Positions 10,880 to 61,021 of a stretch of 64,000 nucleotides of DNA are shown one piece after another (the stretch's first letter is position 1; every line of letters begins with the position of its first letter). Source of the stretch: Thermoproteota archaeon (GTDB taxonomy: Archaea; Korarchaeota; Korarchaeia; Korarchaeales; Korarchaeaceae); NCBI GenBank assembly GCA_027491415.1, contig JAOZFH010000056.1, positions 1 to 64,000 on the forward strand. Reading direction: 5' to 3'. Both the position numbers and the translations under genes were made by a program. Below the pieces are notes generated by a model, which saw nothing but the letters and a program-made list of their open reading frames with translations, was not told the origin of the DNA and made no database searches.

Positions 10880-11875
10880 CTACTGACCCTCGGCTGACTC
10901 GCGGAAGGAGGCCATCTGCTTCTTCAGGTCCTCCGGAAGCTGCTCCAGCCAGAGCTTGTGGACCTTGGCGAGGAGTTCCTTGTACCTGTTTCGGACCGTG
11001 ACCTCGGTGACGCCCGCGGCCTGAGCAAGCTCTCTCTGAGTCTTGTGCTCACCGAACTCCTGGCTGGCCATGTATATGGCAGCCGCCGCAACGCCGACGG
11101 GCTCCCTCCCCATAGTCGCCCCCTGCTGACGGGCTATCTTCAGTATCCTGATGGCCTGGGTAGCCACCCTCTCGGGCAGCCCCAGCTTGGCGCATATTGC
11201 GTAGACGAAGTTCTCCGGCTTGGGAGGCGGTATCCTTATGCCCAGCTTCCTGAACAGGAAGCGAAAGCTCCTTCCCACCTCCTTCTCCTTCAAGTTGAAG
11301 AGTGAGGCGACCTCTTCCAGCGACCGAGGCACGTCCGTCCTCCTGCACGCCGCATAGATCACGGCGGCCACCATGGCGTCCATGCTCCTACCCTTCACCA
11401 GACCCTCACCGGCCGCCTTCCGATAGAGCATGGCGGCGTCCTCCACGGTCTCAGGAGGCAGGTTCAGGGTCTCGGCCGCGAGTCTTATCTTCCTGAGGGC
11501 TGGCTCCACCGCCTTTTCCCTAGCATCGCTGACGTGCCTGTGAGTCCTCCTGAGGGTCTGAACGGACTTCCTGCTCAATCCGCTGGTCATGGCAATGTCG
11601 GAGTCTAGGCCGTATCCGGATCGGGTTGGGGTTACTGGGGCCCCGGTGTGCGCCCTATCCATGTACTCATCGGCGTCGAAGGCCCTCCAGTCCTTATCCG
11701 TATCAACCATACCCGTGCTTAGAATCAACCCACAGCTCGCGCAGACCAGCTCCCCAGTGTTCGGGTCCTTGATTATCTGATCGCTCCCGCAGCGGGGACA
11801 GGTAAACTTTACCTCAGTAAACAGGCTCTCCTTATCGCTCTTCCGGCCACCCTCCAAGGGATCCCCACCATCCAT
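10880..11875 (-). CDS. tfb: Transcription initiation factor IIB
   Basis: CPRCGS..GELVCASCG zinc ribbon, WRAF B-reader, two cyclin repeats, TQRELAQAAGVTEVTVRNRY. Confidence 0.96.
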   Translation of the reverse strand: MDGGDPLEGGRKSDKESLFTEVKFTCPRCGSDQIIKDPNTGELVCASCGLILSTGMVDTDKDWRAFDADEYMDRAHTGAPVTPTRSGYGLDSDIAMTSGLSRKSVQTLRRTHRHVSDAREKAVEPALRKIRLAAETLNLPPETVEDAAMLYRKAAGEGLVKGRSMDAMVAAVIYAACRRTDVPRSLEEVASLFNLKEKEVGRSFRFLFRKLGIRIPPPKPENFVYAICAKLGLPERVATQAIRILKIARQQGATMGREPVGVAAAAIYMASQEFGEHKTQRELAQAAGVTEVTVRNRYKELLAKVHKLWLEQLPEDLKKQMASFRESAEGQ

Positions 11876-11879
11876 TTTC

Positions 11880-11903
11880 AAAGTTTTCGCTATATAAAAC
11901 TTT
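11880..11903. promoter_or_regulatory. Inverted repeat overlapping the tfb TATA box
   Basis: AAAGTTTT-CGCTATAT-AAAACTTT; the minus strand contains TTTTATATA. Confidence 0.55.
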
Positions 11904-53057: not shown

Positions 53058-53133
53058 GGGCCGGTGGTCTAGCGGCTATGACGCCGCCCTCACACGGCGG
53101 AGGTCGTGGGTTCGAGTCCCACCCGGCCCACCA
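53058..53133 (+). tRNA. tRNA-Val(CAC)
   Basis: Anticodon arm CCGCC-CTCACAC-GGCGG; encoded CCA. Confidence 0.96.
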
Positions 53134-56625: not shown

Positions 56626-56703
56626 TGGTGCTCCGGCCGGGATTTGAACCCGGGTCTGGGGCTCGAGAGGCCCCTATGCTTGGCCTGGCTACACCACCGG
56701 AGC
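56626..56703 (-). tRNA. tRNA-Glu(CTC)
   Basis: Anticodon arm GGGGC-CTCTCGA-GCCCC; encoded CCA. Confidence 0.96.
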
Positions 56704-57339: not shown

Positions 57340-59025
57340 TCAATTCCTCCACTCCAGCGTGTGAAACGAGGGGGCCTTTTGAGCGAGAATGGTGAGTTCT
57401 CTATCCGTTATAGGTGTGGCTTCGACTGAGGGCGGAGCCACCGTACACCTCACTGGAGCGGGTCTGCCCTCCATGATCACGACGGCTTCACCTGGTCTGA
57501 GGGTGAAGATAGCGCTTGCTGGATCGTTCTCACCATCCTTCAGGGGGGAGAGGAGGGGTTTCAGGATTTGAAAATCTCTGGGGGATCCAAGTGCGTGGAT
57601 CACCTTTATGGCCGAGTTCCTCATGGCGCTTCTCGAGAGGGCGTGGGGGGCCTGAGTCACTATCATCATGCCCACCCCAAACTTCCTCAGTTCCCCAAGC
57701 ATCTTGTCAGTTACCGTAGCGCCCCTCTCATCTGAGATCGTGGGTAGGACGCGCTCTCCCTCTTCGACCAGCACCACCTGCCGGAGCGGAGATCCGAGTC
57801 CCCACGCCCTTGCGCTGTCGTAGACCCTCTTCAGGATCACATGAACTAGGAGGTCCCTTACCGTATCGGACTCTACGCTCCCTAGAAGTATGGAGGTTGG
57901 CCTGTCCAGCTGGCTGACGTTAGGAAATCTCTCAACCAGAAGATGGGCTCTCCCCTCTCCTTCGACGAGAGGCTCCAGCTTCCTTAGAAGCGCCAGCTTG
58001 CTCTCCATCTCCGGCCCACTTCTCTCCCTGTATTCGGATACCTCGTCCATCAAATCGGCCAACGTTGGGTCTTCTCCTAGACTCGCCCTCAGGGCGCTTG
58101 AGAGGCACCTATGGACTATGAAAGTCTGGGAGGGGGTGAGGCTGAGGGCATCTCGTAAAACCTCTACGTACATGTCGGCCCCCTGCGGATTTGATGCGAT
58201 CCCCCAGAGGACGTTCAGGGAAGGGCCACCGGAGGCGCCGACGACAGATCCTCCTAACCTCGTCACAATACCAGTGTATTCGTTGTGGTGATCCAGTACC
58301 AAAAATGGGATGCCGTAGTCAGACCACAGTCTCTCACATATAGCCATCGCAGTGGTTGACTTTCCAGAACCAGTCCTCCCCATTAGGAGGATGTGTTTAG
58401 AGATCAGGTTCACCGGCAGCCTTACAGGCCTTCTCCCACCATCATACCCAAGGAGCACTGCCGGCGAGCGCTTGCCCACCTCGACACTGGGCAGCCTGAG
58501 CCTCGGGGTAGAGGGAGTCCCGGACTTGCGTCCATAAGTCAAAAGATCAGGCCAAGTCCGCCTACCCATGTCAACAACTTCAAGGTCGCGTCCAAGTACG
58601 CTTCGAAGGGCGGACAGGGCCGCCTTGGCTGAGATGGCTCCCTTTTCCCCGCGCTCAGCTACGGCAAGAATAGGGGCCGACGGGCCGGATGAACCCAAGC
58701 GCTGGAGGAGGTGTCCTTCTAGCCCTGTTGCCTCCAGAACCTGGTGAATGAGGGTAACGTCCACTTCGGCCTTACTTCGGGAGTCCTTGGGTGTGAGGAC
58801 GTATGCATGAAGGTCCGCCTCCTGACCGCGGAGTCTAGACCTAGCGAGTAGTGCCAAGATTCCGGTAATTAGAGCTGTGGGCAGCAATATGGGCACGACC
58901 GACAGCAGCGTCTCGGAAGAAAGGCCCCAAGAGAGTTGAACACCGCGTGCCAGCTTTTTCCGCAGCTCGTTGACCACCACCAAGGCCACGAGAAGGTACG
59001 GAATATTTTTGCCTCTCTCAGGCAA
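57340..59025 (-). CDS. Membrane-anchored HerA/FtsK-superfamily (DUF87) ATPase
   Basis: N-terminal hydrophobic segments; HILLMGRTGSGKS, LDHHNEY, VEEGE, ELRKFGVG..VTQ, L.PGEA. Confidence 0.85.
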   Translation of the reverse strand: MPERGKNIPYLLVALVVVNELRKKLARGVQLSWGLSSETLLSVVPILLPTALITGILALLARSRLRGQEADLHAYVLTPKDSRSKAEVDVTLIHQVLEATGLEGHLLQRLGSSGPSAPILAVAERGEKGAISAKAALSALRSVLGRDLEVVDMGRRTWPDLLTYGRKSGTPSTPRLRLPSVEVGKRSPAVLLGYDGGRRPVRLPVNLISKHILLMGRTGSGKSTTAMAICERLWSDYGIPFLVLDHHNEYTGIVTRLGGSVVGASGGPSLNVLWGIASNPQGADMYVEVLRDALSLTPSQTFIVHRCLSSALRASLGEDPTLADLMDEVSEYRERSGPEMESKLALLRKLEPLVEGEGRAHLLVERFPNVSQLDRPTSILLGSVESDTVRDLLVHVILKRVYDSARAWGLGSPLRQVVLVEEGERVLPTISDERGATVTDKMLGELRKFGVGMMIVTQAPHALSRSAMRNSAIKVIHALGSPRDFQILKPLLSPLKDGENDPASAIFTLRPGEAVVIMEGRPAPVRCTVAPPSVEATPITDRELTILAQKAPSFHTLEWRN

Positions 59026-59776
59026 ATCTGGCCACCTCCAACCCCTGCAGGAGGAGTTTAGTCCGCCTTCTCAGCGCCGAGGAGCTCACGCCTGCGGCGC
59101 GTGCCACCCTCTCCTGTGTTATGAACCTCAATCCCAGAGTCCTAGCCGTGAGCCACACGGTCGCCGCTGCCGTGACTGCCGGGCTCTTGCCGGCGAGTTC
59201 CAACCTCGTGACCTTGCCCGTCACCTTAAGCAGCTCGAGTGACTTCACGTGGAGCCTGTCAAGAGCGACGCCCCAATGTTCGCCGAAAAGGTCGCACAAG
59301 ATAGATTGAAGGGCGGGATCCCGCTTGAGGTGGGATACTATGGAGGATATGTATTGCCTCACCGACCTGCTGTCGATTACGGGTGACCTGCAAGCCGAAG
59401 ATACCTCACCCACCATGATCGCAAGCTTCTTGGGGCTTACCCTGAGCCCCACGCTGGCGGCAGCCTGTGAAACGGTCTTCAGTGTTAACGGAGTCCCGAG
59501 AATTCTGCTTGCCACGACCAGAGACGCCAAGTAGAGGTACCCCTTCCTCCTCCTGTGGAGGCTTTTTGGTAAGCCCGAGATAATCGCCTTAACCAGGTCC
59601 AAAAGTCGCGGAGGTGCGTCCAGCTCGCTTACTACCTCAGAGAGCCACCGGGGTAAGTGTTCTCTTCTCCCCCAAGCGAGGGGGTAGTGGTTTGCTAGGT
59701 CAGAGTAACTTACGTAGGGATCTACGGAGGACGACGGTTGCCACTCGCAGGCCGATGGAGGCAAGTCCCCCTCCAT
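59018..59776 (-). CDS. Divergent TFB core-domain paralog lacking the zinc ribbon
   Basis: Cyclin-repeat motifs LAS..ASR..GTPLTLK and GKSPAVTAAATVWL...TQERVARAAGVSSSALRRR, alignable by eye to the window's TFB; no N-terminal CxxC pair. Confidence 0.75.
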   Translation of the reverse strand: MEGDLPPSACEWQPSSSVDPYVSYSDLANHYPLAWGRREHLPRWLSEVVSELDAPPRLLDLVKAIISGLPKSLHRRRKGYLYLASLVVASRILGTPLTLKTVSQAAASVGLRVSPKKLAIMVGEVSSACRSPVIDSRSVRQYISSIVSHLKRDPALQSILCDLFGEHWGVALDRLHVKSLELLKVTGKVTRLELAGKSPAVTAAATVWLTARTLGLRFITQERVARAAGVSSSALRRRTKLLLQGLEVARFA

Positions 59777-59786
59777 GTTGACGGAA

Positions 59787-59847
59787 TTGAGAAATATTAG
59801 TGTGAATTATGGAGAAAAAATTTAGGAAAATTTCTCAAAAGTTTCCT
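59787..59847. promoter_or_regulatory. AT-rich promoter region with inverted repeats upstream of the TFB-like gene
   Basis: TTGAGAAAT(59787-95)/ATTTCTCAA(59830-38) and AGGAAA(59824-29)/TTTCCT(59842-47). Confidence 0.5.
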
Positions 59848-59852
59848 GCGAG

Positions 59853-60221
59853 TCAGGGGCTCGCGCTGACGATGTCTCTCAGCAGAAAGTAGACCTCGGC
59901 CCCCCTAGAGAAATTGGCCAGATCCGCCATTCGACCCTTAAGCTCCAGGATCACCAGTAGGCCGTATGCTGACGCTCGAAGGGAGTTCTCGTCAGACCGG
60001 TAGACCACAGTATTCATTAGAAGATCCCCTTCACTGGTGGTGGGCTTCTCCTCCACCAAAAGGGCCTCTCCCTCATATCCCTCTGATAGTCTTCGGGCAA
60101 GACCGAGTGGGACCTCGATCGAAAGGGCTCCCTCCACAGGGGACTCAACCGAGAACCTCAGAGTAGCTACTCCACCGACTGGATCTTCTTTCCTCTCAAC
60201 TAGCTTGACGTGGAGCTTCAT
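59853..60221 (-). CDS. rpoG: RNA polymerase subunit Rpo8/G (RPB8 homolog)
   Basis: OB-fold pattern with LMN.VVY, SAYGLLV.L, VYFLL, resembling the RPB8 S.GGLL and VYLL motifs. Confidence 0.7.
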   Translation of the reverse strand: MKLHVKLVERKEDPVGGVATLRFSVESPVEGALSIEVPLGLARRLSEGYEGEALLVEEKPTTSEGDLLMNTVVYRSDENSLRASAYGLLVILELKGRMADLANFSRGAEVYFLLRDIVSASP

Positions 60222-60619: not shown

Positions 60620-60904
60620 TTACTCCCCCTTCGTCGCTATGTAGAGTTTTAGAAGGCGCTCGTCGACGACTATCATCTCGCGAATGTACTTCACCGTTGA
60701 GTAGGGGATGAGGACGTATCCCTCTCGATCCCTCTTCAGCTTCTTGGTCAGAGAGCCGGCCGCTCCCTTTGCCTCCTCCACGACGAGGGAGATCGCCTTA
60801 CCCGACAGCTCGTCGACAACCAGGTCGACGAGTTCTCCGAGCACGAGACCCCTATCCGTAATGACCCCCCGACCTCCCAATCTGCTGACGGAGTACCTGG
60901 CCAC
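60620..60904 (-). CDS. PRC-barrel domain protein (CdpB-like)
   Basis: L.GR.VITDRG..LG...DLVVD..SG, IPYS.V..I.E.IVV; GTG start with GGAGGT SD. Confidence 0.82.
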   Translation of the reverse strand: MARYSVSRLGGRGVITDRGLVLGELVDLVVDELSGKAISLVVEEAKGAAGSLTKKLKRDREGYVLIPYSTVKYIREMIVVDERLLKLYIATKGE

Positions 60905-60945
60905 GGACCCGTTACCTCCCGATCCCCGATCAGGGTTAACTCTGA

Positions 60946-61021
60946 TGGTGGGCCGGGTGGGACTCGAACCCACGACCTCCGCCTCGTCAAGGCGGCGTCA
61001 TAGCCGCTAGACCACCGGCCC
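60946..61021 (-). tRNA. tRNA-Val(GAC)
   Basis: Anticodon arm CCGCC-TTGACGA-GGCGG; encoded CCA. Confidence 0.96.

What the first reader, a model, noticed from the sequence alone, without database searches (positions are those of the whole stretch)
57340..59850. Zinc-ribbon-less TFB core coupled to a membrane-anchored HerA/CedB-like ATPase: candidate uncharacterised regulatory / DNA-transfer module
Seen: 59018-59776 encodes two cyclin-like repeats and the TFB C-terminal HTH (TQERVARAAGVSSSALRRR vs TQRELAQAAGVTEVTVRNR in the canonical TFB here). It has no zinc ribbon or B-reader, and the recognition helix residues differ. Its stop overlaps by 8 bp the start of a HerA-type ATPase with N-terminal hydrophobic segments. 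Established: in Sulfolobales the truncated TFB3 (which keeps the N-terminal zinc ribbon) activates DNA-damage genes, including the Ced DNA importer whose motor CedB is a membrane-bound HerA/VirB4-like ATPase. Inference: this is the mirror-image truncation. It could be a TBP/BRE-binding repressor, an alternative-specificity factor, or half of a split TFB, wired to a DNA translocase. No nurA/mre11/rad50 neighbours, so it is not the standard HerA repair operon.
Basis: partly seen in the sequence, partly recalled or inferred. Interest (0 to 1): 0.72.

Follow-up and report, generated by a model that had tools for sequence, protein, structure and literature searches.

The report
Stripped TFB paralogue with CedD-like ATPase
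A cut-down copy of the archaeal transcription factor TFB is fused into one operon with a membrane-anchored, DNA-pump-like ATPase next to an RNA polymerase subunit gene, and this trio is kept across a whole group of hot-spring archaea, echoing the TFB3/CedD DNA-exchange circuit of Sulfolobus.

Summary
ORF 59018-59776(-) folds as a two-cyclin TFB core with a C-terminal HTH and has no zinc ribbon, B-reader or B-linker. Its stop overlaps by 8 nt the start of a 561-aa ATPase that has an N-terminal membrane hairpin.

The ATPase is not generic HerA and not CedB. Its ATPase domain is closest to CedD, the second ATPase of the Sulfolobales Ced DNA importer, but it scores far below the family cut-off and its N-terminal domain is not covered.

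The pair is an old, vertically inherited module. 39 of 43 genomes of the phylum carry the paralogue. In 37 of those the ATPase follows it directly, and the other two loci end at contig edges. An Rpo8/RpoG gene usually lies just upstream.

The missing ribbon is a derived loss. 22 of 38 orthologues keep a CxxC..CxxC ribbon, and the tree needs about 3 changes of state. No frameshift can restore it here.

Published tables place tfb3 two to three locus tags from cedD in 7 of 7 Sulfolobales, with rpoG nearby in one of them. The korarchaeal-type cluster may therefore be the counterpart of that circuit.

My best reading is a dedicated promoter-binding factor co-made with a DNA-import motor. Its function is inferred, not shown. 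This scan has noted the same module before on other DNA.

The parts
59853..60221 (-). Rpo8/RpoG-like small RNA polymerase subunit gene (122 aa), directly upstream and co-directional
   Evidence: The window copy has no Pfam or PDB sequence hit. Atlas features score 0.91 to PF16992 clusters. The positional counterparts upstream of the TFB paralogue hit PF16992/PF03870 in 14 of 16 ORFs scanned, 6 of them over a cut-off. tblastn of the window copy finds it at that position in 11 of 19 loci.
59777..59852 (-). 76-nt AT-rich spacer; candidate promoter of the operon
   Evidence: Sequence read. It leaves no room for a ribbon-coding exon. Promoter function is inferred only.
59018..59776 (-). Short TFB paralogue (252 aa): disordered N-terminal vestige (aa 1-40), cyclin repeat 1 (about aa 43-129), cyclin repeat 2 (about aa 134-251)
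59063..59122 (-). C-terminal helix-turn-helix of repeat 2 (aa 219-238), the most conserved stretch of the family
   Evidence: Invariant or near-invariant columns G215, R217, Q221 and R236. It aligns to the BRE-reading HTH of TFB/TFIIB.
59018..59025 (-). 8-nt stop/start overlap of the two genes
   Evidence: Overlap or a 2-nt gap is seen in 6 of 17 related loci measured. The other 11 have a 105-143 nt spacer.
57340..59025 (-). Membrane-anchored CedD-like HerA/FtsK-superfamily ATPase (561 aa)
58828..59007 (-). N-terminal helical hairpin (aa 7-31 and 40-66), predicted membrane anchor
   Evidence: Kyte-Doolittle maximum of 2.37 at aa 43-61. Two long helices in the model. Two hydrophobic segments in all 17 orthologues printed.
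57436..58413 (-). ATPase domain (aa 205-530) with Walker A (aa 216-224, 58354-58380) and Walker B acidic pair (E421, E422)
   Evidence: Invariant columns in 18 orthologues. The CedD model aligns to aa 205-516. Fold matches HerA, the VirB4 C-terminal domain and DndH-C.

Best explanation
This is one copy of an ancient, vertically inherited gene cluster of a small archaeal phylum. The order is rpo8, then a short TFB paralogue, then (in some genera) a roughly 45-codon coiled-coil micro-ORF, then a membrane-anchored CedD-like DNA-translocase ATPase.

Shown:
- The paralogue is a TFB core (two cyclin repeats plus HTH). The whole family lacks the B-reader/B-linker, and this genus has also lost the zinc ribbon.
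- It is co-directional with, and here overlaps, an ATPase whose catalytic domain is closest to CedD.
- The linkage survives rearrangement of the flanks across the phylum.

Inferred:
- The paralogue still binds promoter DNA, probably with TBP through its conserved HTH, but it cannot dock on RNA polymerase or open DNA by itself.
- It therefore acts as a promoter-specific gate, either an auto-repressing competitor of TFB or a co-factor working with TFB. It would act on its own operon and on other DNA-exchange or cell-surface genes.
- The ATPase is the cytoplasmic motor of a DNA-uptake or DNA-exchange machine.
- The circuit is the counterpart of Sulfolobales TFB3 activating cedD, where tfb3, cedD and rpoG are also neighbours.
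For: Fold and homology of the paralogue. About 70 TFIIB residues between the ribbon and repeat 1 have no counterpart in the family profile.

HTH conservation.

Distribution: 39 of 43 genomes of the phylum carry the orthologue. The ATPase lies directly downstream on the same strand in 37 of those 39, and the other two loci end at contig edges. It also does so in all 20 loci held in full.

Rearranged flanks: the radical-SAM/UMP-kinase/membrane/kinase block sits on the other side in L047, L049, L050 and L052, while PRC-rpo8-TFB-ATPase stays together.

ATPase identity: all 18 orthologous ATPases have CedD as their best NCBIfam hit. The seven whose tables I saw score 112-175 bits, against 50-68 bits for the next family.

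Rpo8 upstream. The same adjacency was printed for a korarchaeote (PMC2234397, passages).

Sulfolobales literature:
- TFB3 ChIP enrichment at the herA1 (SiRe_1715, now cedD) promoter (PMC6101594, passages).
- Saci_0667 is among the genes reported as upregulated under the paper's heading 'TFB3-dependent UV stress response' (PMC6101591, passage).
- cedD is essential for DNA import (PMC11823120 sections 14 and 16; PMC11868833 abstract and sections 6 and 9).
- CedD and TFB3 locus tags lie 2-3 apart in 7 of 7 Sulfolobales (Table S1 of PMC11823120).
- RpoG is SSO0277, beside tfb3 SSO0280 and cedD SSO0283 (PMC1794556 passage).

Second paralogue: another short TFB paralogue in this genome sits beside a type IV pilus-type cluster. 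This parallels the TFB3 regulon of pili plus Ced.
Against: No expression, binding or transport data exist for this organism.

The ATPase never reaches the CedD equivalog cut-off (112 vs 600 bits). The CedD model covers only its ATPase half, positions about 197-525, in all 7 proteins inspected.

No CedB and no VirB4 were found in a genome that is 96% complete. CedD co-occurs with CedB, or with VirB4, in the Crenarchaeota analysed in PMC11868833. CedA could not be searched.

Repeated loss of the ribbon, about 3 changes among 38 orthologues, suggests that RNA polymerase recruitment is dispensable. That fits a non-transcriptional DNA-binding role equally well.

In the 11 loci with a 105-143 nt spacer the genes are not directly overlapped.

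Five distant CedD-like ATPase loci from metagenomes had no TFB-like neighbour (0 of 5; two of them are cut at the upstream edge).

The Sulfolobales neighbourhood is read from locus-tag numbers only. Strands were not seen, and a thermosome gene lies between tfb3 and cedD in S. acidocaldarius (PMC4569737 passage).
Confidence: 0.5

Rival explanations
1. The TFB-core protein is not a transcription factor here. It is a structural partner of the ATPase, a DNA-binding adaptor that captures or hands over the DNA substrate at the membrane motor. This would resemble the accessory DNA-binding proteins that work with coupling ATPases in conjugation.
For: Stop/start overlap in the window, and chained overlaps through the micro-ORF in other genera, suggest stoichiometric co-production. 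The gene order is fixed across the phylum. The ribbon that docks TFB on RNA polymerase was lost about 3 times while the HTH and cyclin repeats stay conserved. CedD was proposed to act like the VirD4 coupling protein (PMC11823120 section 14).
Against: No TFB/TFIIB-fold protein is known to me in such a role (recalled, not searched). The gene lies directly after an RNA polymerase subunit gene, which points to the transcription apparatus. In Sulfolobales the TFB paralogue next to cedD is a proven transcription activator (PMC6101594 passages).
Confidence: 0.2
2. The adjacency has no functional meaning. The paralogue is a general alternative TFB tied to rpo8, and the ATPase is an unrelated housekeeping membrane ATPase that has simply stayed next door in slowly rearranging genomes.
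For: The wider neighbourhood is housekeeping (exosome subunits, L37Ae, Brix, UMP kinase, tRNAs) and is largely syntenic within the family. GC content is uniform. Eleven of 17 loci have a 105-143 nt spacer.
Against: The flanks were rearranged while the pair stayed together. The pair persists down to 24-29% ATPase identity, including in other families of the class (L053, L054). The spacer, where present, is filled by a conserved micro-ORF whose start and stop overlap both neighbours. The same kind of pairing, tfb3 near cedD, occurs in 7 of 7 Sulfolobales.
Confidence: 0.15
3. It is one half of a split TFB. It works together with a stand-alone zinc-ribbon/B-reader protein encoded elsewhere.
For: The core alone cannot recruit RNA polymerase (established knowledge of TFB domains). 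Sulfolobales TFB3 shows that ribbon-only TFB fragments exist.
Against: Pfam Zn_Ribbon_TF finds only the canonical TFB in this genome (1 match). In 22 of 38 relatives the ribbon is attached to this very protein with a short linker, so the family is not split but stripped. The second paralogue on C51 has its own Cys-rich N-terminus and its own core.
Confidence: 0.04
4. It is part of a mobile element, a conjugative system or an anti-phage HerA system.
For: HerA/VirB4-type ATPases occur in such systems, and weak NCBIfam hits to anti-phage HerA and VirB4-like families exist.
Against: There are no integrase, nuclease, Sir2 or DUF4297 partners, and the context is housekeeping. Composition is uniform. 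Inheritance is vertical, with a gene tree that follows genera. The CedD score exceeds those families by about 60-100 bits.
Confidence: 0.03

Closest known systems
CedD (Saci_0667 / SiRe_1715), second ATPase of the Sulfolobales Ced DNA-import system; TedD of Thermoproteales
   Same: The architecture is the same: an N-terminal membrane anchor, then an N-terminal domain, then a HerA/VirB4-like ATPase (PMC11868833 section 6). CedD is the best NCBIfam hit for all 18 orthologues. The gene lies next to a TFB paralogue, as in 7 of 7 Sulfolobales.
   Different: It scores 112 bits against a cut-off of 600, and only the ATPase half aligns. No CedB or VirB4 was found in the genome. It is directly operonic with the TFB paralogue rather than separated from it by a thermosome gene. 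The lineage lies outside those listed in the papers' tables.
TFB3 of Sulfolobales (Saci_0665 / SiRe_1717 / SSO0280)
   Same: Both are truncated TFB paralogues. Both are encoded beside cedD and near rpoG (PMC1794556). TFB3 is functionally tied to DNA-exchange genes (PMC6101594, PMC6101591 passages).
   Different: TFB3 keeps the zinc ribbon plus a coiled coil and lacks the DNA-binding core (PMC6101594 passages). This protein keeps the core and HTH and lacks the ribbon. In relatives the ribbon is present, and a separate coiled-coil micro-ORF follows the gene.
Canonical archaeal TFB / eukaryotic TFIIB core
   Same: Two cyclin repeats and a C-terminal HTH, with structural and profile matches.
   Different: There is no ribbon here and no B-reader/B-linker in the family. 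Identity to the genome's own TFB is about 20%. A roughly 20-residue insertion extends the helix between the repeats. The recognition helix is changed.
HerA of the HerA-NurA-Mre11-Rad50 repair operon
   Same: Same ATPase superfamily. The best solved-structure sequence and fold hits include S. solfataricus HerA 4d2i.
   Different: It has no HAS-barrel, no NurA/Mre11/Rad50 neighbours, and a membrane anchor instead. The genome's true operon is on C36.

Membership tests
TFB/TFIIB | Two cyclin-fold repeats forming the core domain | tested here: met
   Model and Foldseek. Profile against PDB sequences covers both repeats. hhalign probability 98.2%.
TFB/TFIIB | C-terminal HTH in repeat 2 (BRE-reading element) | tested here: met
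   It aligns to the TFB/TFIIB HTH and is the most conserved segment of the family. DNA binding itself was not tested.
TFB/TFIIB | N-terminal zinc ribbon (RNA polymerase dock binding) | tested here: not met
   There is one Cys in aa 1-40 and none in other frames upstream. Pfam Zn_Ribbon_TF hits only the canonical TFB in the genome. The ribbon is present in 22 of 38 orthologues elsewhere.
TFB/TFIIB | B-reader and B-linker between ribbon and core | tested here: not met
   About 70 TFIIB residues are unmatched between profile positions 14-27 and repeat 1. Ribbon-bearing members are only 243-277 aa long.
TFB/TFIIB | Curated HMM thresholds (Pfam PF00382, NCBIfam NF001658) | tested here: not met
   20.2 vs 23.6 bits and 21.8 vs 384 bits.
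TFB/TFIIB | Binds TBP-DNA and supports initiation | not testable with these tools
There is no biochemistry.
TFB3 (Sulfolobales) | Ribbon plus coiled coil, no cyclin core | tested here: not met
   The domain content is the opposite. The TFB3 domains are as described in PMC6101594 passages.
TFB3 (Sulfolobales) | Gene neighbourhood with cedD | tested here: met
   Here the two genes overlap. In Sulfolobales the locus tags lie 2-3 apart in 7 of 7 species (supplement table; strands not seen).
TFB3 (Sulfolobales) | DNA-damage induction and activation of ced/ups genes | not testable with these tools
   No sequencing run was listed.
CedD / TedD | N-terminal transmembrane anchor | tested here: met
   Some published CedD proteins lack it (PMC11823120 section 14).
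CedD / TedD | HerA/VirB4-like ATPase domain with intact Walker motifs, nearest to CedD | tested here: met
CedD / TedD | NCBIfam equivalog cut-off (600 bits) and full-length match including the N-terminal domain | tested here: not met
   The seven proteins inspected score 112-175 bits, and only model positions about 197-525 are covered.
CedD / TedD | Co-occurrence with CedB (Ced) or VirB4/TedB (Ted) | tested here: not met
   NF041017 gives no match. TIGR00929 gives only P-loop noise. The genome is 96% complete.
CedD / TedD | Co-occurrence with CedA/TedA channel and CedA1/TedC pilins | not tested
   I had no model accession for them. Two guessed accessions turned out to be unrelated families.
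CedD / TedD | Clade membership in a phylogeny with CedD, CedB, HerA and VirB4 references | not tested
   Reference sequences could not be reached. The word-indexed searches returned only unnamed relatives.
HerA repair helicase | HAS-barrel N-domain and NurA/Mre11/Rad50 neighbours | tested here: not met
   The true operon with a HAS-barrel is on C36.

The most novel reading that the evidence does not exclude
The rpo8 / TFB-paralogue / coiled-coil / cedD cluster predates the split of this phylum from the Sulfolobales lineage, and Sulfolobales TFB3 is the orthologue of this stripped TFB. The two lines would have kept complementary halves of one ancestral DNA-exchange initiation factor.

TFB3's odd 'ribbon plus coiled coil' architecture could then have arisen by deletion of the cyclin core. 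That deletion would fuse the ribbon to the coiled-coil micro-ORF, which still follows the gene as a separate reading frame in 10 related loci.

If so, a dedicated transcription-factor/DNA-pump unit for DNA exchange would be an ancestral trait of this group of archaea. The core-only form here would be a natural 'DNA-binding half' that could be tested against TFB3's 'polymerase-binding half'.
Probability: 0.15. Interest if true: 0.8.

Novelty: new variant of a known kind. Interest (0 to 1): 0.62.

Why it matters

A phylum-wide operon that hard-wires a TFB paralogue to a CedD-like motor, beside an RNA polymerase subunit gene, suggests the factor-motor link is much older and more varied than described.

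It also offers natural domain-deletion variants for dissecting what each TFB module contributes: ribbon plus core, core only, and a separate coiled coil.

Finally, it gives a testable candidate for DNA uptake in an uncultured lineage that has no recognisable CedB or VirB4.

Tried and rejected
- Complex prediction (paralogue against the soluble part of the ATPase) was not available. No binding test was done.
- The look-up of sequencing runs listed no run, so no RNA holder was listed.
- A tree of the ATPase with named CedD, CedB, HerA and VirB4 references could not be built.
- The metagenome scan with the ATPase profile gave only 5 distant loci, and 0 of 5 had a TFB-like ORF in the DNA held. Two of them lack upstream DNA, so this says little.
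- Guessed NCBIfam accessions for CedA turned out to be unrelated families. CedA remains unsearched.
- The Pfam RpbG model finds nothing in the own genome, and phmmer of the 122-aa ORF against PDB finds nothing. The Rpo8 assignment for the window copy rests on position, tblastn to relatives and Atlas features.
- A search of the own genome with the micro-ORF profile found nothing credible (best E 0.63).
- The supplement of PMC11868833, which may hold distribution tables, could not be read. It may bear on whether this lineage's homologues were already listed.
- The split-TFB, mobile-element and defence readings were considered and rejected (see rival explanations).
Full report
**The observation**

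One is a 252-aa ORF at 59018-59776(-). The other is a 561-aa ORF at 57340-59025(-).

The TGA stop of the first gene and the TTG start of the second share 8 nt. An orthologue has ATG at the aligned start position (L014).

The window is about 59% GC throughout, with no compositional break. The surroundings are housekeeping genes: exosome subunits, L37Ae, a Brix protein, UMP kinase, a Fap7-type kinase and three tRNAs.

**The upstream protein is a TFB core**

On its own it only grazes the curated models. Pfam TFIIB gives 20.2 bits against a cut-off of 23.6, and NCBIfam TFB gives 21.8 against 384.

The evidence is clear once relatives are added:
- A 13-sequence profile (A2) hits human TFIIB at E 4e-14 and the Pyrococcus woesei TFB core at 1.5e-11, with both repeats aligned.
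- hhalign to the window's own canonical TFB (10880-11881(-)) gives 98.2% probability over TFB residues 131-305, at about 20% identity.
- The AlphaFold model (pLDDT 79.5, core mostly above 90) finds TFIIB/TFB cores first in the PDB (1d3u_B TM 0.69, 1ais_B 0.67; 20 hits at E<=1e-3; cyclins follow).

The first 40 residues are predicted disordered and hold a single cysteine. Only 76 AT-rich nucleotides separate the start codon from the stop of the preceding gene, and no other frame carries a CxxC pair. The ribbon really is absent here.

**The family is rare, and its ancestral form had a ribbon**

The full HMMER scan of 1.84 billion representatives returned only 10 proteins at E<=1e-3, all 167-271 aa long. 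Several of the distant ones begin with a CxxC-x13-CxxC ribbon followed almost at once by the first cyclin repeat.

In the profile-to-TFIIB alignment, about 70 TFIIB residues between the ribbon and repeat 1 have no counterpart. Those residues are the B-reader and B-linker. The family as a whole is therefore ribbon plus core without a B-reader or B-linker.

Across the phylum the window belongs to (43 species genomes held), 42 have some match to the profile. Of these, 39 have a full-length orthologue-type match. The exceptions are G001-G003, which show only canonical-TFB-type partial hits, and G032, which is 63% complete.

Among 38 orthologues with an N-terminus, 22 have the double CxxC and 16 do not. 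On a tree built without the ribbon columns, the state needs 3 changes, or at least 2 on well-supported branches. The ribbon-less sets are:
- the window's genus plus a sister genus
- a second clade of seven
- a pair
- one singleton

Ribbon-bearing copies occur in the most distant families of the class. Loss is therefore the likelier direction, although the root is not secure.

In the alignment, ribbon-less members carry a short aromatic-Pro motif where the others have the first Cys-Pro knuckle. This looks like decay rather than truncation. That reading is my inference.

**The ATPase**

Pfam sees DUF87 (4e-17) and HerA_C (6e-10), with no HAS-barrel.

Among NCBI's curated families the best is CedD at 112 bits, against:
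- HerA: 50 bits
- a VirB4-like family: 25 bits
- CedB: 18.5 bits

All 18 orthologous ATPases I assembled have CedD as their best hit, with a best E of 9.7e-54. In the seven proteins whose tables I inspected, the scores are 112-175 bits against 50-68 for the runner-up. The match always covers only model positions of about 197-525, the ATPase half, and never approaches the 600-bit cut-off.

Walker A and the acidic Walker B pair are invariant.

The model (pLDDT 81.5) has three parts: two long N-terminal helices, an alpha/beta N-domain, and a RecA-type domain. The last matches S. solfataricus HerA, the VirB4 C-terminal domain (TM 0.74) and DndH-C. The second helix is strongly hydrophobic, and all 17 orthologues printed show two hydrophobic N-terminal segments.

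[quoted passage not shown] It has homologues (TedD) in Thermoproteales (PMC11868833 abstract and sections 6 and 9; PMC11823120 abstract and sections 14 and 16).

I therefore call the protein CedD-like and do not file it as CedD.

**Linkage**

tblastn with the window ATPase finds it immediately downstream, on the same strand, in 37 of the 39 orthologue loci. The other two loci (L040, L042) end at a contig edge.

In all 20 loci held in full, the two stop-to-stop frames abut or overlap. With my choice of start codons, 17 loci break down as follows:
- 5 overlap by 4-28 nt
- 1 has a 2-nt gap
- 11 have a 105-143 nt spacer

The flanking block of radical-SAM, UMP kinase, a small membrane protein and a kinase lies downstream in the window. 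It lies upstream in L047, L049, L050 and L052, while PRC-barrel, rpo8, TFB paralogue and ATPase stay together. So the linkage has survived rearrangement. It also extends to other families of the class, where ATPase identity is 24-29%.

**Two further members of the cluster**

First, the 122-aa ORF just upstream (59853-60221(-)) has no Pfam or PDB sequence hit itself. Its positional counterparts hit RNA_pol_RpbG/Rpb8 in 14 of the 16 upstream ORFs scanned, 6 of them above a cut-off. The window copy finds those counterparts by tblastn in 11 of 19 loci. Atlas features place it with RpoG clusters at 0.91. Koonin and colleagues already noted that rpoG has a 'TFIIIB' gene as a co-directional neighbour in the one korarchaeal genome then known (PMC2234397, passages).

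Second, the spacer in the 11 spacer-type loci is not empty. In 10 of them a 42-50 codon ORF is conserved at the protein level (A4). Its start overlaps the end of the TFB paralogue and its stop overlaps the ATPase start codon. Its profile matches GCN4-type and designed coiled coils in the PDB. I found no counterpart in the window's genome (best E 0.63). This genus appears to have lost both the ribbon and the micro-ORF, leaving the minimal pair.

**The rest of the genome**

- The standard NurA-HerA-Mre11-Rad50 operon is on contig C36. Further HerA/NurA-type pairs are on C27 (with an intein), C18 and C10.
- No CedB and no VirB4 were detected at 96% completeness.
- Only one TF-type zinc ribbon exists, that of the canonical TFB. 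This speaks against a split TFB.
- A second short TFB paralogue lies on C51. It is nearer to this family than to canonical TFB (E 1.2e-23 over profile positions 14-201) and is broken by an in-frame stop in this assembly.
- That second paralogue lies back to back with a T2SSE-type ATPase, two T2SSF-like proteins and a prepilin peptidase.

**Comparison with what is known**

In Sulfolobales, TFB3 consists of a ribbon plus a coiled coil and has no core. It activates the ups pili and ced genes after DNA damage and is enriched at the promoter of herA1 (SiRe_1715, now cedD) (PMC6101594 passages). Saci_0667 is among the genes reported as upregulated under the heading 'TFB3-dependent UV stress response' in PMC6101591 (passage).

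Table S1 of PMC11823120 lists CedD and TFB3 locus tags that lie 2-3 apart in all 7 Sulfolobales shown. They are not close in the 5 Desulfurococcales that have both. No member of the window's phylum is in the table.

RpoG is SSO0277 (PMC1794556 passage), next to tfb3 SSO0280 and cedD SSO0283. The gene between tfb3 and cedD in S. acidocaldarius is a thermosome subunit (PMC4569737 passage).

I saw only tag numbers, not strands, and none of the passages I read comments on this neighbourhood. It suggests, but does not prove, that rpoG, a TFB paralogue and cedD formed a cluster before the two lineages split.

**Mechanism**

These points are shown:
- a DNA-binding-type TFB core without the parts that dock on RNA polymerase and open DNA
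- co-production with a CedD-like membrane ATPase
- position directly after an RNA polymerase subunit gene

I infer that the protein still occupies promoters with TBP through its conserved HTH. I infer that it gates transcription of its own operon, and perhaps of DNA-exchange or pilus genes, and that the ATPase powers DNA uptake. My confidence in this is about 0.5.

The main rival, at about 0.2, is that the core protein is a DNA-binding adaptor of the motor itself. The repeated loss of the ribbon and the chained overlaps fit that reading equally well. Mere inherited adjacency (0.15), a split TFB (0.04) and a mobile or defence system (0.03) are less likely.

**Novelty and caveats**

I found no paper that describes this pair. 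The searches were:
- CedD plus archaea: 35 papers, of which I took two as relevant
- Korarchaeum plus TFB plus paralog: 3 papers, of which I read passages of one, which does not describe the pair, and saw the other two only in the listing
- Korarchaeota plus CedB: 0 papers

The supplement of PMC11868833 could not be read.

The scan has noted the same module before on other DNA (e1-6896286, e1-3163195; related notes e1-1225404 and e1-3629600). I re-tested its core claims here independently.

The lineage name is not given by the tools. Record titles of two relatives say only 'Thermoproteota archaeon' and 'Nitrososphaerota archaeon'. The earlier notes say public members are labelled Korarchaeota.

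Start codons, and hence the exact overlaps, are my choices.

Noticed in passing
L049:4567-4701(+), L050:4612-4743(+), L047:3945-4079(-), L046:4548-4676(+), L064:5325-5459(+), L065:5528-5668(+), L070:6235-6384(-), L067:5030-5155(+), L045:4673-4801(+), L048:3922-4050(-): A conserved 42-50 codon coiled-coil micro-ORF fills the 'spacer' between the TFB paralogue and the ATPase in 10 related loci. Its start and stop overlap both neighbours. It is absent from the window's genome (best E 0.63). TFB3 of Sulfolobales is described as ribbon plus coiled coil, which invites comparison.
   Followed up: partly
G000 contig C51 = L058:3755-4786(-), with neighbours L058:1079-3931(+): A second short TFB paralogue with a Cys-rich N-terminus and a TFIIB repeat at 31 bits. 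In this assembly an in-frame stop splits it into 207-aa and 132-aa pieces in one frame, whereas it is intact in same-genus relatives. It lies back to back with a T2SSE ATPase, two T2SSF-like proteins and a prepilin peptidase.
   Followed up: partly
window 59853-60221(-): The Rpo8/RpoG-like gene of this genus has diverged beyond detection by the Pfam RpbG and Rpb8 models, although its positional orthologues in other genera are detected.
   Followed up: yes
G000 contig C27 = L071:9861-13672(-), and L071:6543-9713(-): A 900-aa HerA-like ORF carrying an intein splicing domain, next to a NurA gene, and beside a 1056-aa PLD-like nuclease with a lamin-tail domain. Further HerA/NurA-type pairs lie on C18 and C10, in addition to the canonical operon on C36.
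   Followed up: no
L051 (G039:C79:397-1215): One genome has a second copy of the short TFB paralogue (83 bits to the family profile) on a small contig, with no ATPase after it.
   Followed up: no
window 60946-61021(-) and 60620-60973(-): tRNA-Val (GAC) overlaps the first 28 nt of the longest PRC-barrel ORF, so that gene probably starts further downstream. tRNA-Glu (56626-56703) and tRNA-Val (53058-53133) also lie in the neighbourhood.
   Followed up: no
Genome search table (e.g. G023, G021, G019, G024, G018, G029, G015): Several orthologue matches are reported with one in-frame TGA or TAA inside the matched stretch. I did not check whether these are match over-extensions, assembly errors or real interruptions.
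   Followed up: no
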